64,000 bases of DNA from an uncultured Lactobacillus sp. (GTDB lineage: Bacteria > Bacillota > Bacilli > Lactobacillales > Lactobacillaceae). Position numbers and translations under genes: made by a program. The DNA is taken from the NCBI GenBank assembly GCA_945971245.1, contig CAMFOZ010000001.1, positions 140 through 64,139 of the forward strand. Direction: 5' to 3'. Under the pieces are notes generated by a model. That model searched no databases. It was given only the letters and a program-made list of their open reading frames with translations, and was not told the origin of the DNA. Of this stretch, positions 27,913-36,756 are shown piece after piece. Each line of letters opens with the position of its first letter. Positions within the stretch are counted from its first letter, which is position 1.

Positions 27913-28653
27913 TTAAAGTTTCTTTAGTCCCAGCTTCTTACGTCCGGAGTTAAACCAAGGACTCACCGTAAATGCGAGAACATCATTGATGACATAAATA
28001 GAACTGTTAATAGCCATTGCCAACGTAGCATCCCCTTGTGCGTAGGTAACGCCCCAGAGAATTAATTGGAAGATACCGGATGCAAGCCACCAAAAATATT
28101 GGTTGTTGTAACGCATAAAGCACATAACACCCGCCGTCAAGCTAATAGCAAAGCTAATGGCATCAATCCAAGGGCGTGGATCGTTGGTGAATTTACCAAT
28201 CAAGTAGCCCGAGATTACATATACAAGTAGTGTCCCAATAATAGCGATTAACCATTGCTTACCGCCAAACTTGCGGAGGTGGTTCTTAGTATCGTTGTTC
28301 CACGACCGAACTGCTAAGATAACTGGCAAGTCCAGTGTTAAGACATAAGCCACCTGTTCAAAGATCGATAAGTAGTTCTTAGCAGACCACCCTGCGTAGA
28401 TAAAGCAGGCAGCGCTAACTAGCCCCAGCCAACCGTTAATGGCCTTGGTGGCGTTAATAGCTAACACACATAGGACGCCCAACGTAGTACCAACAAAAGT
28501 AATAATTGCTACTGGAGTAACCGGGTTACTTACCAGTGTCATAATCTGGCAACCTAGACTAAAGAAAAATAGGTAATAGTTCTGTTGTGGCCACCCCTTT
28601 AATTGACTAAGTAACCACTTGAAATAGTTTTGTTTCTTTGCTGTTTGTTCCAT
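27913..28653 (-). CDS. pnuC: PnuC-like nicotinamide riboside transporter family membrane protein
   Basis: 246 aa, about 7 TM segments. Trp/Gly-rich motifs resemble PnuC (by eye only). Confidence 0.5.
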   Translation of the reverse strand: MEQTAKKQNYFKWLLSQLKGWPQQNYYLFFFSLGCQIMTLVSNPVTPVAIITFVGTTLGVLCVLAINATKAINGWLGLVSAACFIYAGWSAKNYLSIFEQVAYVLTLDLPVILAVRSWNNDTKNHLRKFGGKQWLIAIIGTLLVYVISGYLIGKFTNDPRPWIDAISFAISLTAGVMCFMRYNNQYFWWLASGIFQLILWGVTYAQGDATLAMAINSSIYVINDVLAFTVSPWFNSGRKKLGLKKL

Positions 28654-28733
28654 TTGTTTTATCTCCTTTATCTTGTTAGGTTCACGGTTGCCCGTGCCTT
28701 ATCCGTCTTACGACATCTTTCAGTGCCATCAGT

Positions 28734-29057
28734 TTACTTATTCAAATCACTATCTTTGACAAATACGCCATTGATGGTCTTGCCATGACGATGAGCAATT
28801 TCTCGCCAAGCATCATTAAGGCAGATCACCGGATCAAGGCCAACTTGCTTGCTAAAGATAATAATCGTTACAAGTAAATCGCCAACGCTATCAATTAAGT
28901 CATTGTGTTTCTCCTTGTTGTAGGCAGCACTCGTTTCGCCCAATTCTTCAACAATCTTCGTGAACTGAATGTGTGGATCTTTATCCAGCAATTCTCGTTC
29001 TTTTGCCCATTGGGTTAGTTTGTCGGCAATCTCTTCAAACGTTTTATTTTTAGCCAT
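28734..29057 (-). CDS. MazG-like nucleotide pyrophosphohydrolase
   Basis: EELGE and DSVGD motifs in a ~107-aa all-helical protein. The likely start is ATG 29057, right after the upstream stop. Confidence 0.65.
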   Translation of the reverse strand: MAKNKTFEEIADKLTQWAKERELLDKDPHIQFTKIVEELGETSAAYNKEKHNDLIDSVGDLLVTIIIFSKQVGLDPVICLNDAWREIAHRHGKTINGVFVKDSDLNK

Positions 29058-29059
29058 GC

Positions 29060-29353
29060 TTACAAATCCCCCATAAAATAATCTTTTGCAAACCTTTTGA
29101 GCCATTCATTAGGTGTCAAAGCAGTATTTGAATTTGAATCTTCATCAGCATTTTTGCTTTCCGTGCGATTCAAATAATTAGTCTCAGCTTCGGTTAATAA
29201 TTGTGTAGCCTTTATTGCAACGCTTTGCTCTGCCGGCGTACTTTTTGGGTCATTAAGAATGCCGATCATATCTTTAATAGTTAATTCCCGTGCCAACTTA
29301 GTAGTCTCGGCTTCCTGTTTATCCATTAAACGTGCTAAATCTAAGTAGCTCAT
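29060..29353 (-). CDS. hypothetical protein (97 aa)
   Basis: ORF track. Confidence 0.5.
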   Translation of the reverse strand: MSYLDLARLMDKQEAETTKLARELTIKDMIGILNDPKSTPAEQSVAIKATQLLTEAETNYLNRTESKNADEDSNSNTALTPNEWLKRFAKDYFMGDL

Positions 29354-29380
29354 TATTTTGGTGCCCCCATAAAATACGTG

Positions 29381-29605
29381 TCATCCAATAACACTAAACG
29401 TCTTAGTTAATGGTCCAATCTCGCCTTCTGGAACCTGGAATTCAACGTCACCAATAGTCAGACGGTTAGTTAACGTCTCAAAAGACAATTGCGTCACTGT
29501 TAGCCTAGTTCGATGTCCCGTTGCATCGACAAGGTATAACCCAGGTTTCAGTCCATAATATGGTCCGTTTCGTTTTGGGTACCGAATATGATGGTCATTT
29601 TTCAT
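29381..29605 (-). CDS. hypothetical protein (74 aa)
   Basis: ORF track 29381..29632. The likely start is ATG 29605 (SD AAAGGGGAA). Confidence 0.5.
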   Translation of the reverse strand: MKNDHHIRYPKRNGPYYGLKPGLYLVDATGHRTRLTVTQLSFETLTNRLTIGDVEFQVPEGEIGPLTKTFSVIG

Positions 29606-30116
29606 CTGTGTTCCCCTTTTCACTCGCTTCAAATCGTTCTAAGAACTCGTCTGGCGCATACACTTTGCTTTTGCCTTGTGAATCGGTGACAATCCAATCT
29701 TTGTTGTTAACTATGGTTGAATCGAGATAATAGTTATAGATGTAATCGCTCAGCTCAGGAGCGTCAAAATTATAAACTGTTTCAGCAGGCTCGCCGAACA
29801 CGCGTGAAAGCCATCCTTCTGAATGCTCCTTTTGTACCACTGGTGCTTTTACACAAAACATACCTTGATCATCATAAATACGAACCACACCAGTTTTACT
29901 ATTAAACCCATCAATAACACTATCTCCAACAAGAACAACGTCATCATTATCAAGTTGCCACATCAAATTTACAGGTAGATGCTCATGTGTGTCTCCATAA
30001 ACAGAATGCTTACACCTTTTAAGCATCGGGTACTTAATCAAACCGTATTTAGAAGCAAAAGCCATATCAAACTGAACGGCTTCATATTTTTGTGGTAGCT
30101 CTCGGACGGTAATCAA
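29595..30116 (-). CDS. hypothetical protein (173 aa), shares the A.QF...DW.VTD..G...Y...F motif with 30113..30424 and 39288..39539
   Basis: ORF track; paralogy seen by eye. Confidence 0.55.
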   Translation of the reverse strand: MITVRELPQKYEAVQFDMAFASKYGLIKYPMLKRCKHSVYGDTHEHLPVNLMWQLDNDDVVLVGDSVIDGFNSKTGVVRIYDDQGMFCVKAPVVQKEHSEGWLSRVFGEPAETVYNFDAPELSDYIYNYYLDSTIVNNKDWIVTDSQGKSKVYAPDEFLERFEASEKGNTDEK

Positions 30117-34189: not shown

Positions 34190-34226
34190 TCAAAATAAAA
34201 AAAGGTAGCTCAAAAAGAGCTACCTT
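34190..34226 (-). terminator. strong rho-independent terminator closing the RNA island
   Basis: 10-bp stem aaggtagctc / gagctacctt with a 5-nt loop, followed on the minus strand by UUUUUUUUAUUUUG. Confidence 0.85.
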
Positions 34227-34371
34227 GCTTAAGCGTAAAAGGCGGAGCGTATTCATTAAGTTTTGCAGACTTGTAATAAATAGGAACGCTCTTGTGCCTT
34301 TTGAATGTTGTGACTAGACGTAAAAATATCTCAGACATGATGTAAATATAGGAACGTCTTTGTGTCACTGA

Positions 34372-34440
34372 TGCCGATCGATGGAGTCGAACCACCTGAA
34401 GTACGAATTGAAGAGCCACACTTTTGCTCCGAGCATCGAC
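34372..34440 (-). ncRNA. 69-nt tRNA-like element a (Thr-CGU-like anticodon loop, no variable loop)
   Basis: Acceptor GUCGAUG/GAUCGGC (6/7 bp). GAGC-9nt-GCUC D-like hairpin. UUCAA-UUCGUAC-UUCAG arm (4/5 bp). T arm GGUGG-UUCGACU-CCAUC directly abuts the anticodon arm. Confidence 0.5.
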
Positions 34441-34443
34441 GTA

Positions 34444-34508
34444 AAGGCATAGCTTGTACTATTACAAAAAGGAGCTTCTCAACTCCTTTATATTGATGTC
34501 TATGCCTT
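34444..34508 (-). repeat. structured module 1: outer helix aaggcatag/ctatgcctt around the conserved hairpin ggagcttctcaactcctt
   Basis: Core at 34471-34488. Outer helix 34444-34452 / 34500-34508. Confidence 0.7.
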
Positions 34509-34509
34509 A

Positions 34510-34582
34510 TTGTGGGAGCTGGACTCGAACCAGCGAATCACGGTACCAAAAACCGTTGCCTTACCAACTTGGCTATCTCACA
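34510..34582 (-). tRNA. tRNA-Gln (anticodon UUG)
   Basis: Acceptor UGUGAGA/UCCCACA (one A-C mismatch). D arm GCC-AAGUUGGUAA-GGC as in bacterial tRNA-Gln. Anticodon arm ACGGU-UUUUGGU-ACCGU. T arm GCUGG-UUCGAGU-CCAGC. No encoded CCA. Confidence 0.85.
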
Positions 34583-34721
34583 GTAAACGCCTTAAATAGG
34601 CGAAGCTTCTTTGATCTCCCATACCTACTCTTAGCGTGCCCGTCGTCACGAGCCCCTCTGGTGAGATTATTAGCTAACCGCCTCACTTTTTTGACGGCGA
34701 TGATTTTTCCCAAGAGGGTTA

Positions 34722-34835
34722 TGCTGATGAGTGGATTCGAACCACTAGCCAAACGGGAGCGGCCCGGTTGGCTCCTGCACTTTGCAGCCGAAACTTGGTT
34801 GCGACCCAAGGTATCTACTTTGCTGTGCCATCAAC
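34722..34835 (-). ncRNA. 114-nt tRNA-like element c (good acceptor and T arms, oversized core)
   Basis: Acceptor GUUGAUG/CAUCAGC (7 bp). T arm AGUGG-UUCGAAU-CCACU. Internal hairpins CUUGG-GUCGCAA-CCAAG, CUGCA-AAG-UGCAG and AGCCAA...UUGGCU. No D stem. Confidence 0.5.
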
Positions 34836-34836
34836 G

Positions 34837-34928
34837 TTTTCAAAGCATGGAGTGTGTATTTTAAAGACGTGTTACCAACAGTAAAGAGGAGCTTCTCAAC
34901 TCCTTTTTATTTATTCATGCTTTGAAAA
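34837..34928 (-). repeat. structured module 2: 13-bp outer helix around the second copy of the conserved hairpin
   Basis: ttttcaaagcatg (34837-34849) pairs with catgctttgaaaa (34916-34928). Core at 34888-34905. Confidence 0.7.
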
Positions 34929-35032
34929 ATATGGATTATGATCATCTGCCACCATCGCGTCGGCTTTGCACCGGATTCCATACGTATTAGTTTATTATCT
35001 AGGAAGAATGACTACACTTGTCGTGAAGCCAA

Positions 35033-35105
35033 TGAACGCGGTGGGCTTCGGTCCCACGACCCTCGGATTAAAAGTCCGATGCTCTACCAGCTGAGCTACA
35101 CATTC
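35033..35105 (-). tRNA. tRNA-Lys (anticodon UUU) with non-canonical T loop
   Basis: Acceptor GAAUGUG/CGCGUUC. D arm GCUC-AGCUGGUA-GAGC. Anticodon arm UCGGA-CUUUUAA-UCCGA. T stem GUGGG/CCCAC, but the loop is ACCGAAG rather than UUCRANN. Confidence 0.75.
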
Positions 35106-35130
35106 AAATTAAAGTCAGCAAGATAGCTGA

Positions 35131-35601: not shown

Positions 35602-35675
35602 CGCCGAATGCCCGACTTGAACGGGCGACACTCGATTTAACAGACCGATGCTCTAACCAGCTGAGCTAATTCGGC
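35602..35675 (-). tRNA. tRNA-Asn (anticodon GUU)
   Basis: GCCGAAU-UA-GCUC-AGCUGGUUA-GAGC-A-UCGGU-CUGUUAA-AUCGA-GUGUC-GCCCG-UUCAAGU-CGGGC-AUUCGGC-G. All arms canonical. Confidence 0.9.
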
Positions 35676-35682
35676 GAATATT

Positions 35683-35751
35683 ACCAAGCGGCCGGATTCC
35701 AACCGACATTTTGCATGACCAGATCTGTCTAAGTTATCTATCTTCGCTTGG
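35683..35751 (-). ncRNA. 69-nt tRNA-like element g (CAU in a loop, weak anticodon stem, no variable loop)
   Basis: Acceptor CCAAGCG/CGCUUGG (7 bp). T arm GUCGG-UUGGAAU-CCGGC. The putative anticodon arm AUCUG-GUCAUGC-AAAAU has only 3/5 bp. No clear D stem. Confidence 0.45.
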
Positions 35752-36231
35752 TAATAAAGAGATCTCATTTTTAAGCTCACAAATTTATTACACGGATAGG
35801 AGCTTGACTCTAAGTTCGCCAGAATCGCCGTGGCTTTCTAATTACTAGAAATTGCTAAGATAAGGGAGCTACCCTTAATATTCTAGGCTGGGATTTGCAC
35901 CCAACAAGCGAATTTCTAACGGAGAGAGCAAGGTTCTATAGCGAGGCATCCTCCGGCTGTACCTATTGAGCAACTAGAATACAGAATTGATTATTTAGTT
36001 GTGATGACCCTGACGAGAGTCAATAGCCGCCGTTGGATTCGAACCAACTGTTGTGTCCACGTTACACGCGGCTGCCTTAAAGAGATAATCTCGAATCGAA
36101 AAAGCCTAGAATTTAGTCAATATTAGGTGTACAGGTTAAGCGATTGATGCTCTGTCAAAGCACATTATTAAGCTTATACCCGACGATAAATTAGTACAAT
36201 GAATACAGGTTCAACGTGAATAACTTTTTTG
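35752..36231 (-). ncRNA. candidate large structured ncRNA (ROOL/GOLLD-like or novel); boundaries approximate
   Basis: No ORF >=60 aa on either strand. 10-bp long-range helix 35880-35889 / 36103-36112. Several local hairpins. Adjacent to phage tRNAs. Confidence 0.4.
36024..36073 (-). ncRNA. 50-nt D-armless tRNA-like minihelix i
   Basis: AGCCGC/GCGGCU acceptor-like stem, GUGU-AACGUGG-ACAC hairpin, and perfect T arm GUUGG-UUCGAAU-CCAAC. Confidence 0.45.
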
Positions 36232-36756
36232 TTAATCATCATGACACCGGGCCTTTGCCTCGTTAATTAACGTTCTTCCGGAATCTACTCTTGACTTAAC
36301 GGCATCAAACGCTACCACAAACTCTTCCCATGCATTGTTAGCATTGAAGTAGGTAGTTCCTGGATTAATCATTCGCTCATTAGCACTCAGCATCTTAACC
36401 AGGTCCTGGTGAATCTTCTTGGCCGTTTCAACTTTTTTCTTATTGGAAAATTGCTCTAGCGCTCGGTTTATTGCTGATTTAATCTCTGGGTTGGTGTGCG
36501 TATTAACGGGAATATCGTCATACGCATTCTCAGAATACACAGTTACCACTGCCCGCTTCTTTGGATCCACAATCACCACAATATCATTTAGCCGATACTT
36601 GGTTCGATTTTTGCTTTGTGTTTCAACATATGTGCATTGTTGAAGTAACCGTTGAATCCAAGTATCAAGCTCCTTATTGGTAATATTGAACCGGGTAAGA
36701 ATACGATCCTTAGCATGGGCAGTAACGGTATACATGGCGTAATCTCTAACACTCAA
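36232..36756 (-). CDS. hypothetical protein (174 aa)
   Basis: ORF track; TTG start with GGAGGTGA SD. Confidence 0.55.
   Translation of the reverse strand: MSVRDYAMYTVTAHAKDRILTRFNITNKELDTWIQRLLQQCTYVETQSKNRTKYRLNDIVVIVDPKKRAVVTVYSENAYDDIPVNTHTNPEIKSAINRALEQFSNKKKVETAKKIHQDLVKMLSANERMINPGTTYFNANNAWEEFVVAFDAVKSRVDSGRTLINEAKARCHDD

What the first reader, a model, noticed from the sequence alone, without database searches (positions are those of the whole stretch)
34444..34928. Two copies of an 18-nt hairpin core, each wrapped by a different self-complementary outer helix and each directly upstream of an aberrant tRNA-like unit
Seen: ggagcttctcaactcctt occurs at 34471-34488 and at 34888-34905 (stem AAAGGAG/CTCCTTT). 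Copy 1 is enclosed by aaggcatag (34444-34452) / ctatgcctt (34500-34508). Copy 2 is enclosed by ttttcaaagcatg (34837-34849) / catgctttgaaaa (34916-34928). The two outer helices share no sequence, yet each is perfectly complementary. This looks like compensatory conservation of an RNA fold. On the minus strand, module 1 begins 1 nt after tRNA-Gln and ends 3 nt before tRNA-like element a. Module 2 ends 1 nt before the 114-nt tRNA-like element c. Inference: this is a repeated composite RNA unit (structured spacer plus tRNA mimic). It could serve as a processing or termination/antitermination signal, or the two copies could be domains of one larger RNA.
Basis: partly seen in the sequence, partly recalled or inferred. 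Interest (0 to 1): 0.7.

Follow-up and report, generated by a model that had tools for sequence, protein, structure and literature searches.

The report
Conserved hairpin RNA module between phage tRNAs
The two repeats are copies of an unannotated, evolutionarily conserved folded-RNA module that sits wedged between tRNAs and tRNA look-alikes in a Limosilactobacillus phage, probably cut out as a small stable RNA by the cell's tRNA-processing enzymes; its job is unknown.

Summary
The 18-nt core occurs exactly twice (0.05 expected), and both copies lie inside perfect 9-bp and 13-bp helices that abut tRNA-Gln and two tRNA-like units on the minus strand. One detail is wrong: the two outer helices are homologous (AAGGCATAG vs AAAGCATG), not unrelated. 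The copies are paralogues of one module.

- **Architecture:** a closing helix P1, an A/U-rich strand, an invariant 9-bp hairpin with a GNRA-type tetraloop, and a variable 3' strand.
- **Covariation:** relatives with 65-85% protein identity keep the core and change P1 by compensatory substitutions. All six G-U intermediates fall on the gene-sense (minus) strand.
- **Wider family:** the module also occurs in a second phage lineage, including L. reuteri prophages LR1 and LR2, where it is unannotated. It matches no Rfam family.
- **Context:** it is one bead in a tightly packed array (0-4 nt linkers) of tRNAs, tRNA-like units and other helix-closed RNAs. The array lies between a late-regulator gene and a strong terminator.

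Best explanation (inferred, not shown): RNase P and RNase Z cut at the flanking tRNA-like units and release a blunt-ended, nuclease-resistant small RNA. Termination, a single two-domain RNA and a DNA-level element are disfavoured. The function remains unknown.

The parts
34444..34508 (-). Module 1 (M1), 65 nt. It consists of P1 (9 bp), an A/U-rich strand, the P2 hairpin and a 3' strand containing AUAGUAC.
   Evidence: Sequence read. Fold energy is -22.9 kcal/mol, z = -5.4. In orthologues L005, L006 and L008, one P1 pair appears as G:C, G:U and A:U. It is the second-best hit in the whole window of a model built only from the LR1/LR2-lineage family, with exact ends.
34500..34508 (-). M1 P1 5' arm, AAGGCAUAG
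   Evidence: Perfect complement of 34444-34452.
34444..34452 (-). M1 P1 3' arm, CUAUGCCUU
   Evidence: It reads CUAUGUCUU in L005 (a G-U pair) and in L008, where it pairs with AAGACAUAG.
34468..34489 (-). M1 P2: AAAGGAGUU-GAGA-AGCUCCUUU, a 9-bp hairpin with a GNRA-type tetraloop (loop at 34477-34480).
   Evidence: Fold. The stem is invariant in all relatives; the loop is GAGA, GAUA or GAAA.
34837..34928 (-). Module 2 (M2), 92 nt. It has the same architecture, with a 13-bp P1 and a longer 3' strand ending in ACACUC.
   Evidence: I7. Fold z = -4.6. Three P1 pairs changed on both sides in L008. It is the best hit in the window of the independent model, with exact ends.
34916..34928 (-). M2 P1 5' arm, UUUUCAAAGCAUG
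   Evidence: I7; I15.
34837..34849 (-). M2 P1 3' arm, CAUGCUUUGAAAA
   Evidence: I7; I15.
34885..34906 (-). M2 P2 hairpin (loop GAGA at 34894-34897). It has one A-C mismatch or a bulged C near its base.
34722..34835 (-). tRNA-like unit c (114 nt). It has a 7-bp acceptor stem, a canonical T arm (GGUUCGAAUCC) and two extra hairpins where the variable arm would be.
   Evidence: The Rfam tRNA model scores 17 bits, below the gathering score of 29. ARAGORN does not call it. The acceptor stem and extra arm covary in L002, L005 and L008.
34370..34440 (-). tRNA-like unit a (~71 nt). It has an acceptor stem (6 of 7 pairs) and a T arm (GGUUCGACUCC), with a non-canonical core.
   Evidence: ARAGORN and Rfam do not call it. 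The acceptor stem is GUCGAU/AUCGGC in the window and GCUGGCU/GGCUAGC in L008, read directly.
34510..34582 (-). tRNA-Gln(UUG), with no encoded CCA. It ends 1 nt before M1.
34583..34721 (-). 139-nt structured element between unit c and tRNA-Gln. Together with tRNA-Gln it forms a cassette shared with other phages.
   Evidence: Fold z = -3.6. It is conserved in L012 and L275, with 9 pairs changed on both sides.
34930..34982 (-). Element 'b', a helix-closed ~53-nt RNA (AAUCCGGU....AAGCCGAC...AUGGUGGCAG) that ends 1 nt before M2.
   Evidence: Its 26 specified bases are found in 31 IMG/VR contigs. The closing helix covaries: UAUGGA/UCCAUA, UGUGGA/UCCACA, UGUGAA/UUCACA and GCGUAA/UUGCGC.
35032..35106 (-). 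tRNA-Lys(UUU), the first unit of the array downstream of the regulator gene.
34192..34226 (-). Strong intrinsic terminator (10-bp stem followed by U7) that closes the array, about 12 nt before the start codon of the 680-aa gene.
   Evidence: -15.7 kcal/mol.

Best explanation
**What it is (shown).** M1 and M2 are two paralogous copies of a conserved, unannotated structured-RNA module read from the minus (gene-sense) strand. The module has four parts:
- a closing helix P1 of 9-13 bp, which covaries;
- an A/U-rich 5' strand;
- a nearly invariant 9-bp hairpin P2 (AAAGGAGUU-GNRA-AGCUCCUUU);
- a variable 3' strand.

Each copy is one self-contained bead in a dense array of tRNAs, tRNA-like units and other helix-closed RNAs, joined by linkers of 0-4 nt. 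The array lies between a late transcription-regulator gene and a strong terminator in a roughly 64-kb Limosilactobacillus phage.

**How it most likely works (inferred).** The array is transcribed as one precursor. RNase P cuts at the 5' end and RNase Z just after the discriminator base of every flanking tRNA or tRNA-like unit. All of these lack an encoded CCA and have U as the next base. The cuts fall within 0-4 nt of the base of P1, so the module would be released as a 65-92-nt RNA with nearly blunt, helix-protected ends that resist exonucleases. The invariant hairpin would then be the surface recognised by a still unknown partner. On this view the aberrant tRNA-like units act mainly as punctuation.
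For: **Real repeat and fold**
-.

**Conservation with compensation**
- L008-L011 (65% protein identity in the neighbouring gene) keep both cores exactly.
- In the same loci, M2's P1 changes U:A to C:G, C:G to U:A and A:U to G:U. M1's P1 changes G:C to A:U through a G:U state seen in L005.
- Arm alignment of 12 distinct modules from 5 types: 99% of cells are paired, 11 of 14 pairs changed on both sides, 0 of 500 shuffles reach this, and slid controls give 33-44% paired.

**Strand**
- Six independent G-U pairs on the minus-strand RNA and no A-C pairs.
- The GNRA loop and the U-G pair of P2 exist only on this strand.

**Family**
- The same architecture occurs in L060 and about 25 IMG/VR contigs, and in L. 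reuteri phage LR1, where the module was read directly. LR2 gave a 90%-identical match.
- A covariance model built only from that lineage ranks M2 and M1 first and second in the whole window, with exact ends. It also finds the L005 and L006 copies at E of about 0.01-0.02.

**Punctuation**
- P1 lies 0-4 nt from the neighbouring tRNA or tRNA-like ends in every type.
- The tRNA-like units keep the acceptor stem plus a GGUUCRANYCC T arm, with covarying acceptor stems.
- Every unit has U after the discriminator and no CCA.
- In Firmicutes, tRNAs without encoded CCA are cut by RNase Z immediately after the discriminator, after RNase P has acted (PMC8549757, PMC1874595).

**Modularity**
- Cassettes are gained and lost between relatives.
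- L218 keeps the P1 of one module but has lost the hairpin inside it.
Against: - No transcript or cleavage data exist, so processing, release and stability are all inferred.
- A helix ending 1 nt before a tRNA 5' end could hinder leader binding by RNase P rather than help it.
- Element b, upstream of M2, is not tRNA-like. Nothing known would separate b from M2.
- The 5-type covariation count uses a hand-anchored alignment of helices that were found by requiring complementarity, so it leans towards the structure. The unbiased orthologue counts rest on few events: 1 pair in M1 and 3 pairs in one lineage for M2.
- The covariance-model E-values for the window copies (0.11 and 1) are not significant on their own.
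- One copy (L250) is truncated at the end of its array, and one (L218) lacks the hairpin, so the module is dispensable in some phages.
- No partner or target was found.
Confidence: 0.45

Rival explanations
1. The array stays as one large multi-domain non-coding RNA. The modules and tRNA-like units stack on one another and co-fold, as in GOLLD RNAs that carry embedded tRNAs. P1 serves as an architectural strut, and the GNRA loop makes a tertiary or intermolecular contact.
For: - Linkers of 0-4 nt would allow coaxial stacking of P1 on neighbouring helices.
- GNRA-type loops typically make tertiary contacts (established knowledge).
- Relatives carry ROOL RNA a few kb away.
- ROOL and GOLLD lie near phage tRNA islands, and GOLLD linkers can contain tRNAs (PMC12286853, PMC5737381).
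- Element b and M2 have no obvious cleavage site between them.
Against: - Bead content and order differ freely between close relatives. L002 lacks four units, and L008 swaps unit c and drops tRNA-Gln. That is hard to reconcile with one co-evolved tertiary fold.
- Canonical tRNAs inside the array must be released to function.
- No long-range covariation between beads was seen.
Confidence: 0.2
2. The module is a passive structured spacer. P1 only sequesters spacer sequence, so that neighbouring tRNAs and tRNA-like units fold and are processed correctly. The module is then discarded and has no function of its own.
For: - Other, unrelated helix-closed hairpins occupy equivalent positions in relatives: L012 after tRNA-Gln, and the bead upstream of tRNA-Asn at 35679-35756 is replaced by others in L002 and L005.
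- The hairpin is lost inside a retained P1 in L218.
Against: - P2 and the adjoining 5' strand are almost invariant. This holds between the two copies, across relatives with 65% protein identity, and in a second phage lineage. The flanking strands diverge over the same comparisons.
- An insulator needs pairing, not a fixed 22-32-nt sequence.
Confidence: 0.15
3. The inner hairpin is, or descends from, an intrinsic terminator or attenuator of a captured tRNA cassette. Alternatively, the module is a cis-acting antiterminator RNA (like HK022 put) that lets polymerase read through the strong terminator at 34192-34226 into the late genes.
For: - The scan flags the M2 hairpin as terminator-like.
- An unrelated bacterium has a tRNA followed by the same hairpin plus six U (L199).
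- A strong terminator sits immediately before the first downstream gene here and in L008, L012 and LR1, so read-through must happen somehow.
- The put sites also come as two structured copies (recalled from memory, not checked).
Against: - The hairpin is weak: -10.2 kcal/mol, against -15.7 for the true terminator.
- Most members have UCUUUC or UCCUUA instead of a U-tract.
- It lies upstream of units that must themselves be transcribed.
- The covarying P1 3' arm is transcribed only after the supposed termination point.
- Relatives with the same terminator architecture lack the module entirely (L012, L275, L277).
Confidence: 0.12
4. It is a DNA-level element: a protein-binding palindrome (for example for the adjacent regulator), a recombination site, or a small mobile inverted-repeat element.
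For: - The arms are perfect inverted repeats.
- Rearrangement breakpoints fall in or next to modules (L250, L218, L002).
- The regulator gene is adjacent.
Against: - All six wobble intermediates are G-U on one strand. They would be A-C mismatches in a strand-symmetric DNA cruciform or on the other strand.
- There are only two copies in 64 kb, both in one orientation and both inside the RNA array.
- The arms differ in sequence between members, so no common protein site is conserved.
Confidence: 0.04

Closest known systems
Plant mitochondrial t-elements (tRNA-like processing signals; PMC1920247)
   Same: - They are non-canonical cloverleaves that keep an acceptor stem and the GGTTCRANYCC T-arm motif. 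Units a (GGTTCGACTCC) and c (GGTTCGAATCC) fit this.
- They lie flush with the ends of neighbouring RNAs.
- They are proposed or shown to direct RNase P and RNase Z cuts.
   Different: - Here they are in a bacteriophage and arranged in series.
- They flank small structured non-coding modules rather than mRNAs.
- Cleavage has not been tested.
MHV68 TMERs (tRNA-like element followed by pre-miRNA hairpins, released by tRNase Z; PMC4838037)
   Same: Both are virus-encoded composites of a tRNA-like unit directly joined to conserved hairpins. The tRNA 3'-processing enzyme liberates the hairpin RNA.
   Different: - TMERs belong to a eukaryotic virus, use RNA polymerase III and feed into Dicer.
- Here there is no miRNA pathway.
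- The module is closed by its own outer helix and is bounded on both sides.
Structured non-coding RNAs of Lactobacillales phage tRNA islands: ROOL, GOLLD and Lacto-phage-1 (Rfam RF03087, RF03004; PMC5737381, PMC12286853)
   Same: - Same hosts and genomic niche. ROOL is present in relatives L008, L277 and L279. Lacto-phage-1 lies in the same array as the module in L060, L218 and L224.
- Function is unknown in all cases.
- All are defined by covariation.
   Different: - No sequence or structure match to any of them.
- The module is far smaller (65-92 nt) and repeated within one array.
Small stable RNAs (species 1 and 2) encoded in the phage T4 tRNA gene cluster (recalled from memory, not checked here)
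   Same: They are non-tRNA stable RNAs co-transcribed and co-processed with phage tRNAs, of unknown function.
   Different: No sequence relationship is known, the host phylum is different, and the comparison was not tested here.

Membership tests
tRNA (Rfam RF00005 / ARAGORN), for the flanking 'tRNA-like' units | A score at or above the gathering threshold (29 bits), or a cloverleaf called by ARAGORN | tested here: not met
   Unit c scores 17 bits and unit a gives no hit at E up to 10. ARAGORN calls neither. They are tRNA-like, not tRNAs.
t-element-like processing signal | An acceptor-type stem plus a T arm with the GGTTCRANYCC motif, in a non-canonical cloverleaf | tested here: met
   Unit a has GGTTCGACTCC and unit c has GGTTCGAATCC. 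Both have 6-7-bp acceptor stems that covary in L008.
t-element-like processing signal | Cleavage by RNase P and RNase Z at its ends | not testable with these tools
   This needs RACE, RNA-seq or in vitro cleavage. The only indirect signs are the absence of an encoded CCA and a U after every discriminator.
Intrinsic (rho-independent) terminator | A stable G+C-rich hairpin immediately followed by a U-tract, conserved among homologues | tested here: not met
   The M2 hairpin passes a lenient scan and M1 does not. The hairpin energy is -10.2 kcal/mol, against -15.7 for the real terminator. The tail is UCUUUC, UCCUUA or UCUCGU in most members.
Any Rfam 15 family (including ROOL, GOLLD, Lacto-phage-1) | A covariance-model match at the gathering score | tested here: not met
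   Only three tRNAs reach gathering in the window. At E up to 10 the modules hit only noise such as mir-753 at 20 bits.
The module family defined here (LR1/LR2-lineage 'L224-type' module) | P1 closing helix, A/U-rich strand, (A)AGGAG...CUCC(U) hairpin with a GNNA loop, and a 3' strand with AUAGUA; detected by a model built without the window lineage | tested here: inconclusive
   Model R1 ranks M2 (20 bits, E = 0.11) and M1 (15.5 bits, E = 1) first and second in the 64-kb window, with exact ends. L005 and L006 M1 score E = 0.008-0.02. The architecture and the AUAGUAC motif are shared. The individual E-values for the window copies are not significant.
Dispersed DNA palindromes / MITE-like repeats | Many dispersed copies in either orientation; symmetric constraint on both strands | tested here: not met
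   There are two copies, in one orientation, and only inside the RNA array. The substitutions are strand-asymmetric G-U.
Protein-coding sequence | An open frame preserved among relatives | tested here: not met
   Indels of 1, 2 and 4 nt occur between relatives inside the modules. The only ORF, on the plus strand at 34454-34864, overlaps tRNA-Gln.

The most novel reading that the evidence does not exclude
Lactobacillaceae phages encode 'tRNA-punctuated' polycistronic arrays. In these, degenerate tRNA-like units exist mainly to recruit RNase P and RNase Z. The enzymes release a set of small helix-closed RNAs: this GNRA-hairpin module, element b, Lacto-phage-1 RNA and the 139-nt element. These RNAs act late in infection, for example as decoys or partners for host RNA-binding or tRNA-targeting factors, or alongside ROOL-type RNA assemblies. 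That would be a bacterial-virus counterpart of herpesvirus TMERs and of mitochondrial tRNA punctuation.
Probability: 0.3. Interest if true: 0.8.

Novelty: new variant of a known kind. Interest (0 to 1): 0.6.

Why it matters
Phage tRNA islands in Lactobacillales are already known to hold enigmatic RNAs (ROOL, GOLLD) whose function is an open question. This finding shows that such an island is built from several small, independently folding, covarying RNA cassettes. They are packed end-to-end with tRNAs and tRNA look-alikes, and at least four of them are unannotated.

The module is also present in LR1, and by sequence match in LR2. These are inducible prophages of the genetically tractable probiotic L. 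reuteri ATCC PTA 6475. The processing model and the module's function can therefore be tested directly by RNA-seq and deletion.

If the tRNA-like units act as punctuation, phage 'pseudo-tRNAs' would need to be reinterpreted as processing signals rather than as decayed genes.

Tried and rejected
- **Close relatives in public phage sets.** None were found in INPHARED or IMG/VR using the region or the neighbouring 680-aa protein; only tRNA matches or distant cyanophage proteins came back. Exact-protein look-ups of the window's own proteins failed. Relatives came from a homologue search plus contig look-ups.
- **Exact-core scans.**
  - The viral collection gave one chance hit inside a coding sequence (L001).
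  - The genome collection gave 83 hits, roughly what I estimate by hand for 17 specified bases in that collection, and all were unrelated contexts.
  - The metagenome scan gave 112 hits, of which only L060 was related.
- **Relatives at about 50-57% identity** (L012, L275-L281) lack the core.
- **A second internal helix** (ACUAUG/CAUAGU) in the L224-type module was rejected. L231 and L239 delete the 5' half but keep the 3' half, and L229 breaks it.
- **Antisense targets** of the unpaired strands within the window: only 10-12-mers, which I judge to be chance level.
- **Small ORF after the AAGGAG.** The only start is a TTG with zero spacing, and the frame is not preserved.
- **Promoter in the core.** The scan found a single 9-of-12 promoter-like site overlapping M2 (34885-34858). 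That is no more than the shuffles give for the region (4 found against a mean of 6).
- **CRISPR-repeat mimicry (RNA anti-CRISPR).** Considered from memory only; I saw no resemblance to Lactobacillaceae repeats, and it was not tested.
- **ROOL-like RNA in the window** at 28600-29700, and Rfam matches in 35650-36300: none.
- **Function of the 680-aa protein.** No Pfam, PHROG or PDB sequence match.
- **Supplement of the paper describing Lacto-phage-1.** Not held.
Full report
**Observation check.**
- The 18-nt string occurs at exactly the two stated positions. No further copy appears even with three mismatches (0.05 expected).
- Both flanking arm pairs are perfect inverted repeats of 9 and 13 nt.
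- All genes in this part of the window are on the minus strand, so the relevant RNA is the reverse complement.
- On that strand module 1 (M1, 34508-34444) starts 1 nt after tRNA-Gln and ends 3 nt before tRNA-like unit a. Module 2 (M2, 34928-34837) ends 1 nt before tRNA-like unit c.
- Both modules fold much better than shuffled sequence, with z = -5.4 and -4.6.
- One statement is wrong. The outer helices are not unrelated. MAFFT aligns the 5' arms in one register: AAGGCAUAG against (UUUUC)AAAGCAUG.
- M1 and M2 are therefore paralogues of one module. The similarity also extends 5' of the core (32 nt at 91% identity, D2).

**Anatomy.** Each module has four parts:
- a closing helix P1;
- an 8-10-nt A/U-rich strand;
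- a hairpin P2, AAAGGAGUU-GAGA-AGCUCCUUU;
- a 15-35-nt 3' strand.

P2 has nine pairs, including a U-G pair, and is capped by a GNRA-type tetraloop on the minus-strand RNA only.

The array, read along the minus strand:

| Order | Element | Coordinates |
|---|---|---|
| 1 | Two further tRNA-like fragments | ~36060-35880 |
| 2 | Helix-closed bead, 12-bp stem | 35756-35679 |
| 3 | tRNA-Asn | 35676-35600 |
| 4 | 141-aa transcription regulator (PHROG 36; orthologues carry PF05263) | 35556-35131 |
| 5 | tRNA-Lys | 35106-35032 |
| 6 | Helix-closed element b | 34982-34930 |
| 7 | M2 | 34928-34837 |
| 8 | Unit c | 34835-34722 |
| 9 | 139-nt structured element | 34721-34583 |
| 10 | tRNA-Gln | 34582-34510 |
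| 11 | M1 | 34508-34444 |
| 12 | Unit a | 34440-34370 |
| 13 | Two 17-nt direct repeats | 34364-34280 |
| 14 | Strong terminator | 34226-34192 |
| 15 | 680-aa gene | from 34180 |

Linkers between the structured units from element b to unit a are 0-4 nt.

**Relatives.**
- The region has no close relative in INPHARED or IMG/VR.
- A homologue search with the 680-aa protein found many metagenomic relatives and Limosilactobacillus (pontis, reuteri) prophages.
- Loci at 80-85% protein identity keep M2. L005 and L006 also keep M1.
- L002-L004 lack the block [139-nt element, tRNA-Gln, M1, unit a]. The junction lies in the similar 3' ends of units c and a.
- L008-L011 (65% identity) keep both cores exactly while their flanks diverge.
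- In L008 three M2 P1 pairs changed on both sides and one changed to G-U.
- M1 P1 shows G:C (window), G:U (L005) and A:U (L008) at one pair.
- Relatives at 50-57% identity lack the module but have other hairpins between their tRNAs.

**A wider family.**
- A metagenome scan for the core found one related context, L060, from a different phage. It carries two modules with yet other P1 sequences, each abutting a tRNA or tRNA-like unit.
- Element b, used as a probe, retrieved 31 IMG/VR contigs.
- About 25 of these carry a further module type with the same layout. It follows a tRNA-like unit after 1 nt and is followed by another helix-closed bead.
- Its 3' strand (CGUAAUUGCAUAGUAC) is homologous to that of M1 (UGUAAUAGUAC).
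- This lineage includes Lactobacillus reuteri phages LR1 and LR2. In LR1 the module lies in an unannotated gap; LR2 gave a 90%-identical match.
- Across 16 distinct sequences of this type, P1 and P2 change only by compatible single steps: U-G/U-A/C-G, G-C/G-U and A-U/G-U.
- I aligned the P1 arms of 12 distinct modules of five types on their shared G-C centre.
  - 99% of cells pair, and 11 of 14 pairs changed on both sides.
  - No shuffle reaches this, and slid controls give 33-44% paired.
  - This alignment was hand-anchored and built from helices selected for complementarity, so it leans towards the structure. The orthologue counts are the unbiased ones.
- A covariance model built only from the LR1/LR2-lineage sequences ranks M2 and M1 first and second in the whole window, with nucleotide-exact ends. 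Their E-values are only 0.11 and 1. It finds L005 and L006 M1 at E of about 0.01-0.02.

**Strand.** Six independent wobble states are G-U on the minus-strand RNA and none is A-C. By a simple sign test I calculated by hand, p is about 0.016. Together with the GNRA loop, this points to an RNA read in the gene-sense direction. It argues against a DNA palindrome or an antisense RNA.

**What it is not.**
- It matches no Rfam family.
- It is not coding, because frame-breaking indels occur between relatives.
- It is not a convincing terminator.
  - The hairpin energy is -10.2 kcal/mol, against -15.7 for the real terminator.
  - The U-tract is interrupted in most members.
  - P1 covaries even though its 3' arm lies downstream of the hairpin.
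- The two copies are not obligate partners, because L002-L004 have only M2.
- Rearranged copies:
  - In L218 the P1 of one module persists while the hairpin inside it is gone.
  - In L250 a copy at the end of the array is truncated.
  - Together these show cassette-like turnover and dispensability in some phages.

**Mechanism.**
- Shown: a conserved, covarying, sense-strand RNA fold, repeated as a unit with a tRNA-like element and packed flush against tRNA-type units.
- Inferred: units a and c, and their counterparts, keep exactly the parts that RNase P and RNase Z need. These are the acceptor stem and the GGUUCRANYCC T arm, the hallmark of plant mitochondrial t-elements (PMC1920247).
- All units lack an encoded CCA and have U after the discriminator. 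In Firmicutes such precursors are cut by RNase Z right after the discriminator, once RNase P has removed long leaders (PMC8549757, PMC1874595).
- Those cuts would leave the module with a 0-2-nt 5' overhang and a 0-4-nt 3' overhang on P1. Such a form should resist 5' and 3' exonucleases.
- Selection for that stability would explain why P1 always reaches the unit boundaries, even though its length varies from 9 to 13 bp.
- The invariance of P2 implies sequence-specific recognition. The partner is unknown, and no antisense target exists in the window.
- I put this model at about 0.45. The rivals are a single large co-folded RNA (0.2), a passive insulating spacer (0.15), a terminator or antiterminator (0.12) and a DNA element (0.04).

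**Comparison and novelty.**
- Functionally the closest analogues are t-elements and the herpesvirus MHV68 TMERs. In TMERs a tRNA-like unit lets tRNase Z liberate downstream hairpins (PMC4838037).
- By niche, the closest are ROOL, GOLLD and Lacto-phage-1 RNAs of phage tRNA islands (PMC5737381, PMC12286853). ROOL is present in relatives, and Lacto-phage-1 lies in the same arrays as the module in the second lineage.
- The module belongs to none of these families.
- I rate it a new variant of a known kind: a new small structured-RNA motif in a tRNA-punctuated arrangement that, as far as my searches show, has not been described for phages.
- Interest is 0.6. The element is real, conserved and experimentally accessible in LR1/LR2, but its function is unknown and the mechanism is inferred.

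Noticed in passing
window 34930-34982 (-); L209-L239; L060 ~4590-4540 (-); L282 1509-1565: Element 'b' (AAUCCGGU....AAGCCGAC...AUGGUGGCAG, closed by a covarying 6-7-bp helix) is an unannotated RNA motif conserved in 31 IMG/VR contigs. It is also present in L. reuteri phage LR1, and LR2 gave a sequence match. In that lineage it lies 5' of a larger non-coding region which, in the loci scanned (L060, L212, L218, L224, L233), contains Rfam Lacto-phage-1 RNA. In the window it is joined directly to M2 instead. It has no Rfam match.
   Followed up: partly
window 34583-34721 (-); L012 3584-3721; L275 3235-3378: A ~140-nt structured element always sits just upstream of tRNA-Gln. It is conserved in three phage lineages, with 9 base pairs changed on both sides, and has no Rfam match. 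It may be a distinct new motif or a tRNA-Gln leader.
   Followed up: partly
window 34192-34364 (-); also L008 4815-4985, L012 4735-4985, L282 2195-2240: Two or three direct repeats (ACA[AG]A.ACGTTCCTAT) are followed by a strong intrinsic terminator that ends about 12 nt before the start codon of the first downstream (late?) gene. The terminator before the gene is also seen in the LR1 lineage; the repeats were seen only in the window, L008 and L012. Transcription into the late genes must therefore start inside the terminator or read through it.
   Followed up: no
window 35679-35756 (-): A third helix-closed bead (12-bp perfect stem TATTACCAAGCG/CGCTTGGTAATA enclosing 54 nt, with a GGAAUCCGG stretch as in element b) ends 2 nt before tRNA-Asn. 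Relatives L002 and L005 have a different helix-closed bead at this position, and L006 has an extra 60-nt tRNA hit.
   Followed up: partly
window ~36060-36008 and ~35980-35880 (-); L012 3136-3225: Two more tRNA-like units lie upstream of tRNA-Asn: a minihelix with acceptor stem and T arm, and a ~100-nt unit with acceptor stem AUUCUAG/CUAGAAU. ARAGORN calls the L012 counterpart of the second a 90-nt 'tRNA-Stop' with anticodon UUA, which could be an ochre suppressor-like tRNA.
   Followed up: no
L008 9045-9594; L277 8402-8974; L279 900-1436: ROOL RNA (RF03087, 113-123 bits) is present in relatives of this phage. It is absent from the window at the gathering score, and at E up to 1 in the 28600-29700 gap.
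   Followed up: yes
L009 11528-12037; L279 7238-9388; L280 5446-7596: Relatives encode polynucleotide kinase-phosphatase/RNA ligase (AAA_33, Metallophos, RNA_lig_T4_1) genes near the array. This is a tRNA-repair type of system. Together with the phage tRNA-Lys, tRNA-Asn and tRNA-Gln, it hints at conflict with host anticodon nucleases. No ORF of comparable length (~700 aa) lies downstream of the PnuC-like gene in the window's ORF list; no domain search was run there.
   Followed up: no
L218 6456-6519 vs L060 3811-3738 (-); L250 8150-8060 (-): One module keeps its outer helix but has lost the inner hairpin (L218). Another is truncated where the array ends and a gene begins (L250). These are natural variants useful for testing function.
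   Followed up: partly
L224 10325-10407: An 83-nt tRNA (Rfam 49.7 bits) with an insertion in the anticodon region, not called by ARAGORN, follows the beads in the LR1-type array.
   Followed up: no
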